Shown in pieces: positions 6,544 to 12,051 of a stretch of DNA of 64,000 nt; position 1 is the stretch's first letter, and every line of letters starts with the position of its first letter. The translations under genes were made by a program, and so were the position numbers. The notes below the pieces were generated by a model that saw only the letters and a program-made list of their open reading frames with translations, was not told the DNA's origin and ran no database searches. Location: NCBI RefSeq assembly GCF_003991155.1, contig NZ_CP031293.1; one strand, given 5' to 3'. This DNA comes from Escherichia coli (GTDB lineage Bacteria; Pseudomonadota; Gammaproteobacteria; Enterobacterales; Enterobacteriaceae).

Positions 6544-8064
6544 ATGTCTTCTCATCCGTATGTCACCCAGCAAAATACCCCGCTGGCGGACGATACCACT
6601 CTGATGTCCACTACCGATCTGCAAAGCTATATCACTCATGCTAATGACACTTTTGTGCAGGTGAGCGGCTATACCTTGCAAGAGTTACAGGGGCAGCCGC
6701 ACAACATGGTGCGTCACCCGGATATGCCAAAAGCGGCGTTTGCGGATATGTGGTTCACCCTGAAAAAAGGGGAGCCCTGGAGCGGCATCGTGAAAAATCG
6801 CCGCAAAAATGGCGACCATTATTGGGTGCGGGCCAATGCGGTACCGATGGTGCGCGAGGGAAAAATCAGTGGCTATATGTCGATTCGTACCCGGGCGACG
6901 GATGAAGAGATCGCGGCGGTGGAGCCGCTGTACAAAGCGTTGAACGCCGGACGGACCAGTAAGCGTATTCATAAAGGCCTGGTGGTGCGTAAAGGCTGGC
7001 TGGGAAAACTGCCTTCATTACCGCTTCGCTGGCGGGCGCGTGGCGTGATGACCCTGATGTTTATCTTGCTGGCGGTCATGCTTTGGTTTGTTGCTGCCCC
7101 GGTGGTGACGTATATCCTCTGTGCGTTAGTGGTATTGTTGGCAAGCGCCTGTTTTGAATGGCAGATTGTCCGCCCGATAGAAAATGTCGCCCGTCAGGCA
7201 CTGAAGGTGGCGACCGGAGAGCGTAATAGTGTTGAGCATCTGAATCGCAGCGATGAGCTGGGGCTGACATTACGCGCGGTAGGGCAGCTTGGCCTGATGT
7301 GCCGTTGGCTAATTAACGATGTCTCAAGCCAGGTGTCCAGTGTCAGAAATGGCAGTGAGACGCTGGCGAAAGGCACCGATGAACTGAACGAACATACCCA
7401 GCAGACAGTTGATAACGTTCAGCAAACGGTGGCGACCATGAACCAAATGGCGGCGTCGGTGAAACAGAACTCTGCCACGGCGTCGGCTGCCGATAAACTT
7501 TCTATCACCGCCAGTAATGCGGCAGTGCAGGGCGGGGAGGCGATGACTACGGTGATCAAGACAATGGACGATATCGCCGACAGTACCCAGCGCATTGGCA
7601 CCATTACTTCGCTGATTAACGATATTGCGTTTCAGACCAATATCCTGGCCCTGAATGCGGCGGTGGAAGCGGCGCGAGCCGGCGAACAAGGCAAAGGTTT
7701 TGCAGTGGTGGCAGGGGAAGTGCGTCATTTAGCCAGCCGCAGCGCCAATGCCGCCAACGATATTCGCAAGCTGATTGATGCCAGTGCTGATAAAGTGCAA
7801 TCTGGTTCGCAGCAGGTACACGCCGCCGGACGGACGATGGAAGATATTGTGGCACAGGTAAAAAACGTCACCCAGTTGATAGCTCAGATTAGCCATTCAA
7901 CGCTGGAACAGGCCGATGGGCTTTCCAGCCTGACCCGTGCAGTGGATGAGCTTAATCTCATCACCCAGAAAAACGCCGAGTTAGTGGAAGAGAGTGCGCA
8001 GGTGTCGGCGATGGTGAAACACCGCGCCAGCCGACTGGAAGACGCGGTGACGGTGCTGCATTAA
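6544..8064 (+). CDS. aer: Aerotaxis receptor Aer (PAS-FAD sensor plus methyl-accepting signalling domain)
   Basis: 506 aa; N-terminal PAS, two TM helices, HAMP and MCP signalling domain. Confidence 0.9.
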
Positions 8065-8067
8065 TCG

Positions 8068-8165
8068 GTATGCCGGATCCGGCAGTTGGCGCACAATGCC
8101 TGATGCGATGCTGGCGCAGCTTATCAGGCCTACGGGGGGGTAGGGCACGCCACATCCGGCAATCG
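8068..8165. repeat. REP (repetitive extragenic palindromic) elements
   Basis: gccggatccggc... / gcctgatgcgatgctggcgcagcttatcaggcctac REP-type palindromes. Confidence 0.6.
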
Positions 8166-8169
8166 GTGA

Positions 8170-8793
8170 TTAATCCAGTTGCGTAATATCAAAAGCGGCG
8201 CGGTCGATCACCGCAATGATCTTTTTTACTTGTGCATCAGTGATATCGCTCTGGTTGACGCGTAAATCCAGCACCGCTTTAAAATTATCCAGCGCCCGCT
8301 TCATTTGCGGGTTCTGGCGCAGCGCAGCGCCAACGCAACGCGCTTTGATGCGTTCTTCAATCATCTCTACCTGTTCGCGGTTTTCTTCCAGCCACTGCGC
8401 GCCTTGTTCGGTCAGTGCAATCTGCTTCTTACCACCTTCCTCTTCGCGGATGGTAATCAGCGACTGCTCCTGCAGAAAATCCAGCGTTGGGTAGATGACG
8501 CCCGGGCTTGGGGTGTAATTCCCCTGGGTTAGATTCTCAATCGCTTTAATCAACTCGTAACCGTGGCTGTCATCGCGCGAGAGAATATCCAGAATCACCA
8601 GACGTAATTCACCGTGACCAAAGAAACGTTGCCGACGACCGCCGCCGCGACCGTGGCGACCACCGCAGCATTGACCGTGTTCATGCTGGTGACCGTGTCC
8701 GCAGTGCTCGTGTTCTGACTTCTCACCTTTGCAGCAGCCCTCATGGCGTGGCTGGCCTTCATGTTTACAACACCCTTCGTGATGATGGCTCAT
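8170..8793 (-). CDS. yqjI: PadR-family transcriptional repressor YqjI with His/Cys-rich N-terminal metal-binding region
   Basis: 207 aa, MSHHHEGCCKHEGQPRHEGCCKGEKSEHEHCGHGHQHEHGQCCGG... followed by PadR-like winged helix. Confidence 0.85.
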   Translation of the reverse strand: MSHHHEGCCKHEGQPRHEGCCKGEKSEHEHCGHGHQHEHGQCCGGRHGRGGGRRQRFFGHGELRLVILDILSRDDSHGYELIKAIENLTQGNYTPSPGVIYPTLDFLQEQSLITIREEEGGKKQIALTEQGAQWLEENREQVEMIEERIKARCVGAALRQNPQMKRALDNFKAVLDLRVNQSDITDAQVKKIIAVIDRAAFDITQLD

Positions 8794-8813
8794 ATCAGCC
8801 TCCTTTTGCTTAA

Positions 8814-8827
8814 TTAGATATATCTAA
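8814..8827. promoter_or_regulatory. Palindromic operator ttagatatatctaa in yqjI promoter (candidate YqjI autoregulatory site)
   Basis: Perfect 14-bp palindrome; near-identical second copy at 9044-9057. Confidence 0.55.
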
Positions 8828-8893
8828 TTTATATCTGATATGAGCACTCTTGCAAGAATAAAAATGATTTTTAAATGTGGACTCATCTCACAC

Positions 8894-8975
8894 GTAGGCC
8901 GGATAAGGCGTTCACGCCGCATCCGACATTGAGCAATAATGCTTGATAAGAGGTTGCGCGTCTTATCAGACTACA
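8894..8975. repeat. REP elements in yqjI-yqjH intergenic region
   Basis: gccggataaggcgttcacgccgcatccg... REP-type palindromes. Confidence 0.55.
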
Positions 8976-9004
8976 GATATATCAGTTCTACAAATCGCTT
9001 GCAT

Positions 9005-9031
9005 TTATCATGATTAACAATCATTATCATT
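9005..9031. promoter_or_regulatory. Fur-box-like sequence upstream of yqjH
   Basis: ttatcatgattaacaatcattatcatt resembles the gataatgataatcattatc Fur consensus. Confidence 0.5.
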
Positions 9032-9043
9032 TACGAAAATTAT

Positions 9044-9057
9044 TTAGATATATCTGA
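9044..9057. promoter_or_regulatory. Second operator palindrome ttagatatatctga just upstream of yqjH
   Basis: 13/14 match to the palindrome at 8814-8827. Confidence 0.55.
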
Positions 9058-9080
9058 TTACCATCACGAAGGCGATAACA

Positions 9081-9845
9081 ATGAATAACTCCCCCCGCTA
9101 CCCGCAGCGCGTTCGCAATGATCTGCGCTTCCGTGAACTGACTGTGTTACGCGTTGAGCGCATCAGCGCCGGTTTTCAGCGCATTGTCCTCGGCGGCGAG
9201 GCGCTGGACGGTTTTACGTCGCGCGGCTTTGACGATCACAGCAAACTCTTCTTTCCTCAACCTGACGCTCACTTTGTGCCGCCAACGGTAACGGAAGAGG
9301 GCATCGTCTGGCCGGAAGGACCACGCCCACCGTCGCGTGACTATACGCCGCTGTATGACGAACTACGCCATGAACTGGCGATCGATTTCTTTATTCACGA
9401 CGGTGGGGTCGCCAGCGGCTGGGCGATGCAGGCGAAACCGGGCGATAAACTTACGGTGGCAGGTCCGCGCGGTTCGCTGGTGGTGCCGGAAGATTACGCG
9501 TATCAGCTGTATGTCTGCGATGAATCCGGAATGCCGGCACTGCGCCGCCGCCTGGAAACGTTGAGCAAACTTGCCGTTAAACCGCAAGTTAGTGCGCTGG
9601 TTAGCGTGCGGGATAACGCCTGTCAGGATTATCTCGCGCACCTTGATGGTTTTAATATCGAATGGCTGGCACATGATGAGCAGGCGGTAGATGCGCGTCT
9701 GGCGCAGATGCAAATCCCTGCCGATGATTACTTCATCTGGATAACCGGCGAAGGCAAAGTCGTTAAGAATTTAAGCCGCCGCTTTGAAGCGGAACAGTAT
9801 GACCCACAGCGGGTACGTGCAGCGGCTTACTGGCACGCAAAGTAA
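9081..9845 (+). CDS. yqjH: NADPH-dependent ferric-siderophore reductase (siderophore-interacting protein family)
   Basis: 254 aa, FAD-binding ferredoxin-reductase-type fold; synteny. Confidence 0.85.
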   Translation: MNNSPRYPQRVRNDLRFRELTVLRVERISAGFQRIVLGGEALDGFTSRGFDDHSKLFFPQPDAHFVPPTVTEEGIVWPEGPRPPSRDYTPLYDELRHELAIDFFIHDGGVASGWAMQAKPGDKLTVAGPRGSLVVPEDYAYQLYVCDESGMPALRRRLETLSKLAVKPQVSALVSVRDNACQDYLAHLDGFNIEWLAHDEQAVDARLAQMQIPADDYFIWITGEGKVVKNLSRRFEAEQYDPQRVRAAAYWHAK

Positions 9846-9898: not shown

Positions 9899-9974
9899 TG
9901 GTGGCCCCTGCTGGACTTGAACCAGCGACCAAGCGATTATGAGTCGCCTGCTCTAACCACTGAGCTAAGGGGCC
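9899..9974 (-). tRNA. ileX: tRNA with CAU anticodon, consistent with tRNA-Ile2 (lysidine-modified)
   Basis: Reverse complement reads GGCCCCTTAGCTCAGTGGTTAGAGCAGGCGACTCATAATCGCTTGGTCGCTGGTTCAAGTCCAGCAGGGGCCACCA: cloverleaf, CAU anticodon, encoded CCA. Confidence 0.85.
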
Positions 9975-10098: not shown

Positions 10099-10605
10099 AT
10101 GGTTGAGGATATTTTGGCTCCAGGGTTACGGGTCGTGTTTTGCGGTATCAACCCTGGGCTTTCATCCGCCGGAACGGGTTTTCCCTTTGCTCATCCGGCA
10201 AATCGCTTCTGGAAGGTGATATATCAGGCCGGGTTTACCGACCGTCAGTTGAAGCCGCAGGAGGCACAGCATCTGCTGGATTATCGTTGTGGCGTCACCA
10301 AACTGGTAGACCGTCCAACGGTGCAAGCCAATGAAGTGTCAAAGCAGGAGCTGCACGCAGGCGGGCGTAAGCTAATTGAAAAAATAGAAGATTATCAGCC
10401 GCAGGCGTTGGCGATTCTGGGCAAACAAGCATATGAACAGGGATTCAGCCAGCGCGGTGCACAGTGGGGGAAACAAACGCTCACCATTGGTTCGACGCAG
10501 ATTTGGGTGCTGCCAAATCCCAGTGGTTTAAGTCGCGTTTCACTGGAGAAACTGGTTGAAGCGTATCGCGAGCTGGACCAGGCGCTGGTAGTGCGTGGGC
10601 GATAA
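10099..10605 (+). CDS. mug: G/U mismatch-specific DNA glycosylase
   Basis: 168 aa, ...[27 protein letters not shown]... UDG family 2 motif. Confidence 0.9.
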
Positions 10606-10625: not shown

Positions 10626-12051
10626 TAATGCCAGTCAGTTAAGCAACTGACTGGCTCTTTTTCGGGGCTGTGGGGTATTTCCAGGGCCTCTCCTTTACCA
10701 CTCTCGGGAAGGCCCTTTCCCTTCTTGTCGGTAATTTCACAAGTTGTCCCATACTTGCAAGATCGCGCATCAGCTCCGGTATACGTCCCGGTGAAGCGCC
10801 CTGCAATGTCATCAGCATTCTCATCACCATTCCGCATGATTCTGAGAAACTCAGTTGATTCGGCCAGTAACCTTTCAGATGTTCCGCCATTTTAATCATC
10901 TGATATCTCACCAGATTATAAGCCAGTAAGACACCCCACAGCTCTTGCTCCACAAGCTCCGGTTTTTTACTTCTCAGCGTCAGCCTGCTCAGTTGCATCG
11001 TCTGTTTTATCTCCCTGTATCCCAGTTCGATTTCCCAGCGATGACTGTACAGATCCGCCATTTCTCCTCCGGGGAAGCGCATGGCGTCCGTCATCGACGT
11101 CAGCAGATGGCAGACTTTTCCTTTGCGCGTCACGGTCAGCAGGCGGGCTGTCACTTCATTTCCCAGTCCCGGCCACTTTTTTCGTGCCTGCGGGCTGGTT
11201 TTCAGCTTCACCAGATGATCGCCTTTACCCAGTTTTCTGATCTCTTCATATTGCGCTCCCTTTCTGAGAGGTATCATCCAGTGGCGGTGTTCTCCCGCCA
11301 GGCTCCAGGCATTTAACAGTCCCAGTGAGTAATAACCTTTATCCATTAACGTCAGAGTGTTATCGCCGGTTTGTTCTATAAGTTGCTCAGCAAGCTCATT
11401 TTCGCTGTTCTTCATCGTGCCGAAGGCTGCAGCCGTCAGCAGATGGCTGGTCAGTTCCATCTGGCAGACCATTTTGACCTGCGGGTAGAGCGCCGGGTTC
11501 CCGGCATGTGTCTGGCGGGGGAAGGCTGCATCGTTCTCTGGTGTATCCGGTGTGCGCCAGAACACACCATCGATGGCCAGCAAGGTCAGGCCGCACCAGT
11601 GCGGATGCGGCGTGGCGTTATGCCAGAGCTGCGCTGTTTTCGTGAACACGCGGCGGACAGCCTCACTTCCCAGGCGCTGGCGGGCCTGAATAACGGCACT
11701 GGGGGCAACGAAGGGGCGATTGCCCGGCAGCATGATGTCCAGGCGATTCACAATCTGGTGAAGAGGTTCTTTACGCTCAAGCGCCATGCCAACAATACAC
11801 CAGACCATCATTTCGAGGGGAAGACGGCGCTTGCGTAGCGTTACAGTACCTGATTCGGCAAGGCAACGAGAGATGAGTTCGGGGTCGAGGTAATCCCCCA
11901 GAGAAGTCAGTGGGTTACGCAGAGAATCGTAACGGGATACCAGATCAAGAGCCTGTCCAATGTGCATAAAAAAATCCGGAAACAAGTGAGCGTTTCCGGA
12001 TTCTTACACAGCCACTGGATCGGTCAACTGATCCTTAACTGATCGGCATTA
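10626..12051 (-). mobile_element. IS4 insertion sequence, copy 2 (1426 bp), same orientation as copy 1
   Basis: Identical to copy 1 except one nucleotide (copy 1 pos 2412 g vs copy 2 pos 11339 t); own 13-bp target-site duplication. Confidence 0.93.
10639..11967 (-). CDS. insG: IS4 transposase (442 aa)
   Basis: Same protein as copy 1 with Lys at ...TLTLMD[K]GYY... Confidence 0.9.

What the first reader, a model, noticed from the sequence alone, without database searches (positions are those of the whole stretch)
8170..9080. yqjI-yqjH divergent control region: twin palindromic operators, Fur-box-like site, and a His/Cys-rich metal-sensing N-terminus
Two copies of ttagatatatctaa-type palindromes (8814-8827, 9044-9057) flank a REP-containing spacer and a Fur-like box at 9005-9031. 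YqjI begins MSHHHEGCCKHEG...HEHCGHGHQHEHGQCCGG, a plausible metal-binding region. This matches the described nickel and iron responsive regulation of yqjH, and the architecture is readable directly from the sequence.
Basis: partly seen in the sequence, partly recalled or inferred. Interest (0 to 1): 0.2.

Follow-up and report, generated by a model that had tools for sequence, protein, structure and literature searches.

The report
Known nfeR–nfeF nickel/iron control region

Summary
The window is E. coli chromosome. ORF 8170-8793(-) is NfeR/YqjI, 99% identical to K-12 b3071, with a PadR domain. ORF 9081-9845(+) is NfeF/YqjH, a SIP-type ferric reductase.

TTAGATATATCTAA sits exactly at 8814-8827, and a one-mismatch copy sits at 9044-9057. 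No shuffle of 100 produced a match at one mismatch or fewer. A Fur box lies at 9010-9034, and the spacer holds a two-REP BIME at 8894-8974.

Comparison of 23 loci from six enterobacterial genera shows both operators, the Fur core and two -35 hexamers as conserved islands (0.85-0.93). The spacer is far less conserved (0.45). GATATATC occurs 48 times in these intergenic regions and never in 118 kb of flanks.

- The nfeR-proximal site is an 18-nt perfect palindrome plus an 11-bp-phased extra half-site.
- A third, poorly conserved core copy lies at 8974-8985.
- The REPs are Escherichia-specific.

The one mildly new point concerns the His/Cys tail. It is hypervariable among orthologues (12-93 aa, 0-10 Cys) and almost absent in Enterobacter, although the operators are conserved there.

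Verdict: already known, low interest.

The parts
8170..8793 (-). nfeR (yqjI) coding sequence, 207 aa, PadR-family repressor
   Evidence: ORF. Pfam PadR, E 2.5e-15, residues 67-136. 99% identical to K-12 b3071. RefSeq annotation as nfeR.
8629..8793 (-). Codons 1-55: His/Cys/Gly/Glu-rich N-terminal tail (12 His, 7 Cys), the presumed metal-sensing module
   Evidence: Composition. The tail is hypervariable among orthologues. Its role in nickel sensing comes from the literature: PMC7981267 and Blahut 2018 from memory.
8386..8595 (-). Codons 67-136: PadR winged-helix DNA-binding domain
   Evidence: Pfam PF03551. The domain is almost invariant across six genera.
8812..8829 (.). NfeR operator near nfeR ('site II'): 18-nt perfect palindrome AATTAGATATATCTAATT. 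It overlaps the inferred nfeR -10 by two bases (8828-8829) and covers the predicted transcription start.
   Evidence: Mean conservation 0.93, with 13 of 18 columns invariant across genera. Invariant within Escherichia.
8830..8839 (.). Extra half-site TATATCTGAT, 11 bp (one helical turn) from the right half of the palindrome. It extends site II into the nfeR -10/spacer.
   Evidence: Direct-repeat family D1. Conservation 0.93, with 8 of 10 columns invariant. Enterobacter carries three such units in tandem.
8828..8833 (-). Inferred nfeR -10 (TATAAA on the minus strand, 16-nt spacer)
   Evidence: Read directly from the sequence. The simple scanner missed it because its rules require T at position 6. 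This is an inference with no transcription-start data.
8850..8855 (-). Inferred nfeR -35 (TTGCAA)
   Evidence: A conserved GCAAG island lies in the cross-genus alignment. Inference.
8894..8974 (.). BIME: two REP elements in inverted orientation (GTAGGCCGGATAAGGCG...CATCCGAC and the reverse complement of GTAGTCTGATAAGACGCGCAACCTCTTATCA)
   Evidence: At least 40 copies per genome. Rfam naRNA4/REP325 model matched over its full length. Arm matches. Absent outside Escherichia, and the second REP is polymorphic within E. coli.
8974..8985 (.). Third copy of the operator core (cAGATATATCag), of doubtful function
   Evidence: It is mutated in K-12 (AGACATATC) and in strain SCPM (AGATGTTTC). Cross-genus conservation is only 0.55.
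8999..9004 (+). Inferred nfeF -35 (TTGCAT)
   Evidence: CTTGCA is conserved in all genera, with conservation 0.91. Inference.
9010..9034 (.). Fur box cluster overlapping the inferred nfeF -10 (CATTAT, 9022-9027) and the promoter spacer
   Evidence: 14/19 and 13/19 matches to the Fur consensus, among the top five in the window. 9018-9032 is invariant in 11 sequences from 5 genera. A published information-theory model gives 19.9 bits centred at -59, which is 9022.
9044..9057 (.). NfeR operator near nfeF ('site I'): TTAGATATATCTGA, about +9 to +24 relative to the inferred nfeF start
   Evidence: Conservation 0.89. Identical in K-12. One E. coli strain has the perfect palindrome TTAGATATATCTAA here.
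9081..9845 (+). nfeF (yqjH), NADPH-dependent ferric-chelate/siderophore reductase
   Evidence: Pfam FAD_binding_9 (E 1.8e-36) and SIP (E 1.6e-25). RefSeq annotation.

Best explanation
The region is the E. coli nfeR(yqjI)-nfeF(yqjH) divergent control region, wired as a two-input repressor switch.

NfeR is a PadR-type winged-helix repressor. It binds AGATA|TATCT-type inverted repeats placed just downstream of the -10 of each of two back-to-back sigma-70 promoters. Site II (8812-8839, a palindrome plus a phased half-site) covers the nfeR -10/start region, so NfeR represses its own gene. Site I (9044-9057) sits at about +9 to +24 of nfeF.

Fur-Fe(II) independently binds the cluster at 9010-9034, which overlaps the nfeF -10 and spacer. 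nfeF is therefore off when iron is sufficient.

Nickel bound by the His/Cys-rich N-terminal tail of NfeR lowers its DNA affinity and de-represses both genes. As a result, the ferric-siderophore reductase is made when iron is short or when nickel interferes with iron use.

The roughly 200-bp spacer, with its BIME, is a lineage-specific filler rather than part of the conserved logic.

Shown here: the sequence elements, their non-random occurrence, single-copy status, identity with K-12, synteny and cross-genus constraint.
Taken from the literature: repression by NfeR, relief by nickel and Fur control.
Inferred: the exact promoter hexamers and start sites, and hence the operator positions relative to +1.
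For: - Gene identities.
- Palindromes are non-random: no shuffle of 100 gave a match at one mismatch or fewer. GATATATC occurs 3 times in the 287-bp intergenic region against 0.54 expected in the whole 64 kb.
- Operators and the Fur box are identical to K-12, and all K-12 differences fall in the spacer.
- 23 loci from Escherichia, Citrobacter, Enterobacter, Lelliottia, Superficieibacter and Raoultella all keep the divergent nfeR/nfeF pair. All keep one GATATATC-centred site next to each gene: 48 occurrences in 4.6 kb of intergenic DNA against 0 in 117.7 kb of flanks.
- Conservation profile: site II 0.93, half-site 0.93, Fur core 0.91, site I 0.89, -35 hexamers 0.85-0.91, spacer 0.45.
- The NfeR DNA-binding domain is nearly invariant, matching the invariant operator core.
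- The operator segments are single-copy in 5,422 of 5,426 E. coli genomes.
- Fur: consensus scores and the published 19.9-bit, 8-site cluster at -59.
- Function from papers read here: NfeR represses nfeF and nickel relieves it; a Klebsiella nfeR deletion raises nfeF 85-fold (PMC7981267). Nickel induces nfeR, and nfeF belongs to the Fur regulon (PMC9508795; PMC9501238).
- The titles of Wang 2011 and Wang 2014, seen in reference lists, state Fur plus YqjI control and communicating YqjI binding sites in this intergenic region.
Against: - No binding data could be generated or read here. The two primary footprinting papers (PMC3019823, PMC4135662) are not held. The assignment of the palindromes to NfeR therefore rests on conservation, position and my recollection of those papers.
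- Promoter hexamers are inferred. The generic scanner proposed a different, poorly conserved nfeF promoter, TTAACA-18-AATTAT at 9014-9043.
- Genomic SELEX found PepA binding in this same spacer (PMC8249747), so another protein also recognises something here.
- The distance between the two operators varies from 96 to 230 bp with no conserved helical phase. This sits awkwardly with a strict looping model.
- Orthologues with conserved operators often lack every Cys of the tail. The nickel step may therefore not generalise beyond Escherichia, Citrobacter and Salmonella.
Confidence: 0.93

Rival explanations
1. The twin palindromes are the terminal inverted repeats of a miniature mobile element that carried the REP-containing spacer into this intergenic region. 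They are not operators.
For: The two copies are both direct and inverted repeats of each other (22-nt arms, 86% complementary, 206 nt apart, I1). They bracket a BIME, which is itself a dispersed repeat.
Against: Both palindrome-bearing segments are single-copy in 5,422 of 5,426 E. coli genomes. They are present at the same positions relative to the two start codons in genera that have no REP at all and a spacer of only about 97 bp. There is no flanking target-site duplication. The core is invariant while the enclosed DNA is the least conserved part.
Confidence: 0.01
2. The conserved AT-rich palindromes are primarily sites for a different DNA-binding protein (PepA, IHF/HU or extended Fur polymerisation). 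NfeR acts elsewhere or indirectly.
For: PepA genomic SELEX gave its only peak in the nfeF/nfeR spacer (PMC8249747). The published Fur model finds 8 sites over 106 bp here. The operators themselves score 11-12/19 against the Fur consensus.
Against: The sites co-occur strictly with nfeR in all 23 loci and nowhere in the flanks. One copy sits on nfeR's own promoter, as expected for an autoregulator. The inverted-repeat form fits a dimeric winged-helix PadR protein, whose recognition domain is invariant. From memory, published footprints place YqjI on these repeats. PepA or Fur binding in the region does not exclude NfeR binding.
Confidence: 0.04
3. The palindromes and the Fur-like box are chance features of an AT-rich intergenic region.
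For: At 3 mismatches the 14-mer is not significantly enriched in the window (3 found against 1.25 expected; 19 of 100 shuffles reach 3). AT-rich promoters often resemble Fur boxes.
Against: At one mismatch or fewer, no shuffle of 100 gives any match. The elements are invariant across six genera while neighbouring bases drift. There are 48 occurrences of the core in intergenic DNA and 0 in flanks.
Confidence: 0.005

Closest known systems
E. coli K-12 yqjH-yqjI (nfeF-nfeR) intergenic region as described by Wang, Wu & Outten 2011 (J Bacteriol 193:563) and Wang et al. 2014 (J Bacteriol 196:3199)
   Same: It is the same locus. NfeR is 99% identical. The intergenic length is the same at 287 bp. Both operators, the Fur box and both inferred promoters are base-for-base identical.
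   Different: There are about 20 substitutions, all in the spacer/BIME and in the third core copy: window AGATATATC against K-12 AGACATATC. This strain also carries an IS4 between mug and rpoD that K-12 lacks, which is unrelated to the control region.
PadR-family repressors (B. subtilis PadR, L. lactis LmrR, Rv3488 and others)
   Same: It has an N-terminal-type winged helix-turn-helix (Pfam PF03551; PDB relatives 9qbc, 3l9f and 4esb by sequence). It recognises an inverted repeat, is autoregulatory, and controls an adjacent gene.
   Different: NfeR carries a His/Cys-rich metal-binding tail ahead of the PadR domain and (from the literature) responds to a metal rather than to phenolic acids or drugs. 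Its operator is a contiguous AGATA|TATCT palindrome with extra phased half-sites. No NfeR structure is in the PDB.
Other E. coli nickel sensors (NikR, RcnR)
   Same: They also give nickel-dependent changes in DNA binding that control transcription. This rests on established knowledge and was not tested here.
   Different: The folds are unrelated (ribbon-helix-helix for NikR, four-helix bundle CsoR-like for RcnR). Those proteins control nickel import and export, whereas NfeR links nickel to an iron-reduction enzyme.
Canonical Fur-repressed promoters (fepA-fes, entC, fhuA and others)
   Same: Overlapping Fur hexamer arrays lie over the -10 and spacer. The strength (19.9 bits) is comparable to mntH and fhuA in the same published table.
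   Different: A second, gene-specific repressor operator lies immediately downstream, giving a two-signal gate.
BIME / REP325-type repeats (Rfam naRNA4, RF02564)
   Same: The spacer 8897-8972 aligns to the full 77-nt model and recurs at least 40 times per genome.
   Different: The score is below the family's gathering threshold (53.3 against 59.5 bits). It is a single unit rather than the tandem REP325 array. There is no evidence it is expressed as an RNA.

Membership tests
NfeR/YqjI-NfeF/YqjH regulatory module of E. coli | The regulator is a PadR-family protein orthologous to K-12 b3071 | tested here: met
   Pfam PadR, E 2.5e-15. 205/207 identical to b3071.
NfeR/YqjI-NfeF/YqjH regulatory module of E. 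coli | A divergently transcribed neighbour encodes a SIP-type FAD ferric reductase | tested here: met
   FAD_binding_9 and SIP domains. Divergent synteny is kept in 23 of 23 loci.
NfeR/YqjI-NfeF/YqjH regulatory module of E. coli | Two inverted-repeat operator sites, one at each promoter | tested here: met
   Sequences are present, identical to K-12 and conserved across genera.
NfeR/YqjI-NfeF/YqjH regulatory module of E. coli | NfeR physically binds those sites and nickel releases it | not testable with these tools
   Secondary literature only (PMC7981267). The primary papers are not held.
NfeR/YqjI-NfeF/YqjH regulatory module of E. coli | Cys/His-rich N-terminal metal-binding tail | tested here: met
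   12 His and 7 Cys in 55 residues. Among close orthologues this feature is not universal: 57 of 117 have no Cys.
Fur box / Fur regulon promoter | Match to the 19-bp consensus as overlapping, 3- or 6-bp-offset sites over the promoter | tested here: met
   14/19, 13/19 and 12/19 at 9016, 9010 and 9006. A published model gives 19.9 bits and 8 sites, centred at -59.
Fur box / Fur regulon promoter | Iron- and Fur-dependent transcription | not testable with these tools
   Stated in PMC9501238 and PMC9508795, citing McHugh 2003 and Wang 2011.
REP/BIME dispersed repeats | Imperfect GC-rich palindrome of about 35 nt beginning GTAG, present in many intergenic copies, often paired in inverted orientation | tested here: met
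   Arms found. At least 40 places per genome. Full-length naRNA4/REP325 model alignment.
MITE / mobile element with terminal inverted repeats | Multiple genomic copies of the TIR-bounded unit | tested here: not met
   The operator segments occur once per genome.

The most novel reading that the evidence does not exclude
The repressor-operator core of the NfeR system is ancient and rigid. The wHTH, the GATATATC operators, the Fur box and the promoters are near-invariant across at least six genera.

The supposed nickel sensor, by contrast, is a fast-evolving low-complexity add-on. The tail ranges from 12 to 93 residues, 0 to 24 His and 0 to 10 Cys. It grows by tandem HEGCCKGEGHxH repeats in Citrobacter and is essentially absent (MRHEHEGGGRRQ) in Enterobacter and Leclercia.

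If cysteines are required for the nickel response, as reported for E. coli (from memory), then nickel sensing is a derived trait of the Escherichia/Citrobacter/Salmonella branch. The Cys-free orthologues, including the Klebsiella/Raoultella type, would answer to another signal or act as plain autoregulated repressors.

A corollary concerns the control region. The ancestral form looks like the compact Enterobacter layout of about 144 bp, with three phased half-site units. In Escherichia, spacer and BIME insertion split it, leaving the third core copy at 8974-8985 as a decaying remnant.
Probability: 0.3. Interest if true: 0.3.

Novelty: already known. Interest (0 to 1): 0.1.

Why it matters
For genome annotation it matters little. 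The locus, its regulators and its logic were published in 2011-2018 and are in RefSeq and RegulonDB-type resources.

The comparative results give independent, sequence-only support for which bases are functional: both operators, the extra half-site, the Fur core and two -35 hexamers. They also show that the REP/BIME spacer is dispensable filler.

The one point that could interest a metalloregulation specialist is the tail. The Cys-rich sensor is not a conserved property of NfeR orthologues. This bears on whether 'nickel-responsive' is the right functional label outside Escherichia. It might also help explain why a Klebsiella nfeR mutant showed strong nfeF de-repression but no nickel phenotype (PMC7981267).

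Tried and rejected
- Primary papers. I tried to read Wang 2011 (PMC3019823), Wang 2014 (PMC4135662 and its DOI) and Blahut 2018 (DOI). None is held. Searches for reviews describing the footprints found nothing useful.
- Generic promoter scan. It returned TTCACG-18-AATAAT, which lies inside the REP, and TTAACA-18-AATTAT. I rejected both as main promoters because their hexamers are not conserved, whereas TTGCAT/CATTAT and TTGCAA/TATAAA are.
- Third core copy (8974-8985) as a third operator. It is not conserved in K-12 or strain SCPM, and only a loose TATATCA half-site at variable spacing is seen in other genera. I left it as doubtful.
- 11-nt perfect inverted repeat 8788-8798/8835-8845 around site II. 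It is not co-centred with the palindrome, it would not be co-transcribed given the inferred start, and changes in E. albertii and CFSAN004176 are not compensatory. I treated it as incidental or as additional ATATC half-sites.
- Helical phasing between the operators as evidence for looping. Distances of 96-97, 166, 172-175, 183, 217-219 and 230 bp show no common phase. Within Escherichia, the two spacer haplotypes differ by 11 bp in the alignment, with inter-site distances of 217-219 and 230 bp.
- MITE hypothesis. Rejected because the operator segments are single-copy.
- IS621 seen in two best-matching genomes. It lies between aer and nfeR, not in the control region.
- Rfam scan. It found no known sRNA or riboswitch in the region apart from REP-derived naRNA4-like hits and the tRNA.

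Full report
WHAT IS THERE

The window is E. coli chromosome. The stretch 6.5-14 kb reads as follows:
- aer (6544-8064, +)
- nfeR/yqjI (8170-8793, -)
- a 287-bp intergenic region (8794-9080)
- nfeF/yqjH (9081-9845, +)
- tRNA ileX (9899-9974, -)
- mug (10099-10605, +)
- an IS4 element
- rpoD

The same 2.1 kb is found at 80% coverage or more in 5,422 of 5,426 complete E. coli genomes, annotated nfeR and nfeF. NfeR here is 205/207 identical to K-12 b3071 and carries a PadR winged-helix domain at residues 67-136. NfeF carries the FAD_binding_9 and SIP domains of siderophore-interacting ferric reductases.

CHECK OF THE OBSERVATION

Palindromes. TTAGATATATCTAA is at 8814-8827 exactly as stated, and it is the centre of an 18-nt perfect palindrome (8812-8829). 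The second copy at 9044-9057 is TTAGATATATCTGA, one base off. At one mismatch or fewer these are the only matches in 64 kb, and none of 100 dinucleotide-preserving shuffles produced any. At three mismatches the pattern is not significant, so the signal lies in the near-exact pair.

Fur box. The Fur-like box is real but best placed at 9010-9034. It gives 14/19 and 13/19 matches to GATAATGATAATCATTATC at 6-bp offset, within the top five 19-mers of the window. A published information-theory scan of K-12 lists yqjH with a 19.9-bit site, 8 sites over 106 bp, centred at -59 from the ATG (PMC2189734). Position -59 is window position 9022.

Spacer. The segment 8888-8975 recurs at least 40 times per genome. 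It aligns over the full length of the REP325-derived Rfam model naRNA4, though below the gathering score. It is a pair of inverted REPs, a BIME.

N-terminus. The quoted N-terminus is correct. The 55 residues before RFFGHG hold 12 His and 7 Cys.

- Immediately right of the nfeR-proximal palindrome lies TATATCTGAT (8830-8839). It repeats the right half-site 11 bp, or one helical turn, further on (family D1).
- A third exact copy of the core AGATATATC lies at 8975-8983.
- Two conserved hexamer pairs fit sigma-70 promoters. TTGCAT (8999-9004), a 17-nt spacer and CATTAT (9022-9027) fit nfeF. On the other strand, TTGCAA (8855-8850), a 16-nt spacer and TATAAA (8833-8828) fit nfeR.
- With these promoters, the Fur cluster covers the nfeF -10 and spacer, and site I sits at about +9 to +24 of nfeF. 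Site II runs from the nfeR -10/spacer (the half-site) across the nfeR start (the palindrome). These promoter assignments are inferences from conservation, not from mapped 5' ends.

COMPARATIVE TEST

One scan of species-representative genomes with NfeR returned 23 loci from Escherichia, Citrobacter, Enterobacter, Lelliottia, Superficieibacter and Raoultella. All keep nfeF divergent from nfeR. Intergenic length ranges from 130 to 276 bp in these loci, against 287 bp in the window and in K-12.

In every locus one GATATATC-centred site sits next to each gene. There are 48 occurrences in 4.6 kb of intergenic DNA and none in 117.7 kb of flanks.

In an 11-sequence, five-genus alignment the mean column conservation is as follows:
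- site II palindrome: 0.93
- adjacent half-site: 0.93
- Fur core: 0.91 (9018-9032 invariant)
- site I: 0.89
- the two -35 hexamers: 0.85-0.91
- spacer: 0.45
- third core copy: 0.55

Within Escherichia, including the most divergent E. coli sampled, the operators and a 42-bp block running from 8991 through the nfeF -35 and the Fur box to 9032 are invariant. The spacer exists as two haplotypes that differ by an 11-bp indel and many substitutions. K-12 differs from the window only in the spacer and in the third core copy.

REPs are absent outside Escherichia. Enterobacter has a compact region of about 144 bp with three phased half-site units and only 97 bp between the operator centres. The operator-bearing segments are single-copy in E. 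coli, which removes the mobile-element reading.

MECHANISM

The best-supported account is the published one.
- NfeR represses nfeF and itself through the two inverted-repeat sites.
- Fur-Fe(II) independently represses nfeF through the box over its -10.
- Nickel bound by the N-terminal tail releases NfeR.

Statements read here:
- NfeR represses nfeF, excess nickel relieves this, and a Klebsiella nfeR deletion raises nfeF 85-fold (PMC7981267).
- Nickel induces nfeR, and nfeF is in the Fur regulon (PMC9508795; PMC9501238).

From memory, not verified here:
- Wang 2011 footprinted YqjI on inverted repeats in both promoters.
- Wang 2014 reported an extended footprint at the yqjI-proximal site, interdependence of the two sites, sensitivity to spacer deletions and dispensability of the REPs.
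- Blahut 2018 tied the nickel response to N-terminal cysteines.

My anatomy agrees with each of these. The extra phased half-site would explain an extended footprint at site II, and the lack of REP conservation fits their dispensability.

One caveat concerns any looping model. Inter-operator distance varies from 96 to 230 bp with no common helical phase.

Another protein, PepA, gave its sole genomic-SELEX peak in this spacer (PMC8249747). This does not conflict with NfeR binding, but it is unexplained.

COMPARISON WITH WHAT IS KNOWN, AND NOVELTY

This is not a relative of the known system. It is the known system, with identical functional elements. The novelty class is 'already known'. No NfeR structure exists in the PDB; only distant PadR relatives are there.

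ONE SIDE RESULT WORTH RECORDING

I searched the conserved core against 5.8 billion proteins. Among the 120 best cluster representatives the tail spans 12-93 residues, 0-24 His and 0-10 Cys. Of the 117 with the RFFGHG landmark, 57 have no Cys at all and 35 have a tail of 20 residues or fewer.

- Cys-rich tails occur in Escherichia, Citrobacter (with tandem HEGCCKGEGHxH expansions) and Salmonella.
- His-only tails occur in Raoultella, Leclercia and Lelliottia.
- Enterobacter has essentially none.

Operators, the Fur box and the DNA-binding domain are conserved in all of them. This suggests, but does not show, that nickel sensing through cysteines is a lineage-specific elaboration of an older autoregulated repressor.

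VERDICT

The mechanism is known. Interest is low (0.1). The residual novel reading, a lineage-specific sensor tail on an invariant repressor-operator core, has a probability of about 0.3 and modest interest.

Noticed in passing
window 8629-8793 (-); loci L003-L025; proteins P0001-P0120: The N-terminal His/Cys tail of NfeR is hypervariable among close orthologues: 12-93 aa, 0-24 His and 0-10 Cys. Citrobacter shows tandem HEGCCKGEGHxH expansions, and the tail is almost absent in Enterobacter. The PadR core and the operators stay near-invariant.
   Followed up: yes
window 10639-11985 (-): An IS4-family transposase (448-aa ORF, NCBIfam transpos_IS4_1, E 9e-91) is inserted between mug and rpoD. K-12 has these genes adjacent, with only a 78-bp gap. 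The same insertion is annotated as IS4 in several other E. coli genomes.
   Followed up: partly
L001 825-1805 (NZ_CP054388.1), corresponding to window about 8065-8169: In at least two otherwise identical E. coli genomes an IS621 (IS110 family) sits in the REP-containing gap between aer and nfeR. This suggests, by position only, insertion into the REP there. The insertion junctions were not examined.
   Followed up: partly
window 8071-8130 and 8897-8972: Both REP clusters flanking nfeR give sub-threshold full-length hits to Rfam naRNA4 (RF02564, REP325-derived nucleoid-associated RNA), at 42.9 and 53.3 bits against a gathering score of 59.5.
   Followed up: no
window 8788-8798 and 8835-8845: An 11-nt perfect inverted repeat, GCTCATATCAG / CTGATATGAGC, brackets the nfeR-proximal operator and overlaps the nfeR start codon. 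It is not co-centred with the palindrome, and no compensatory changes appear in relatives.
   Followed up: partly
window 8857-8990; alignment A3: The E. coli population carries two spacer haplotypes, with or without the second REP. They differ by an 11-bp indel (about one helical turn) and many substitutions. Only about 1,270 of 5,491 matching records have a best match of 95% identity or more to this window's spacer version.
   Followed up: partly
window 8794-9080 (literature): Genomic SELEX reported the aminopeptidase/DNA-binding protein PepA binding only to the nfeF/nfeR spacer in the whole K-12 genome (PMC8249747). No PepA site was identified here.
   Followed up: no
window 9899-9974 (-): ARAGORN calls this tRNA as tRNA-Met (anticodon CAT). 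RefSeq annotates the same gene as ileX, tRNA-Ile(CAU), the lysidine-modified isoleucine tRNA. This is a known limitation of anticodon-based calling.
   Followed up: no
P0001; window 8595-8762 (-): A database protein (P0001, 219 aa) is a frameshift version of NfeR. Its N-terminus is the alternative-frame ORF MKASHAMRAAAKVRSQNTS... that is also open in the window. Some Citrobacter entries (P0008, P0009) show the same kind of out-of-frame tail. This suggests that the repetitive tail-coding DNA is prone to indels or sequencing errors.
   Followed up: no
L028 (E. coli GPEC1054), aligned to window 9044-9057: One E. coli strain has G changed to A in the nfeF-proximal operator. This makes it the perfect palindrome TTAGATATATCTAA, identical to the nfeR-proximal core.
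   Followed up: no
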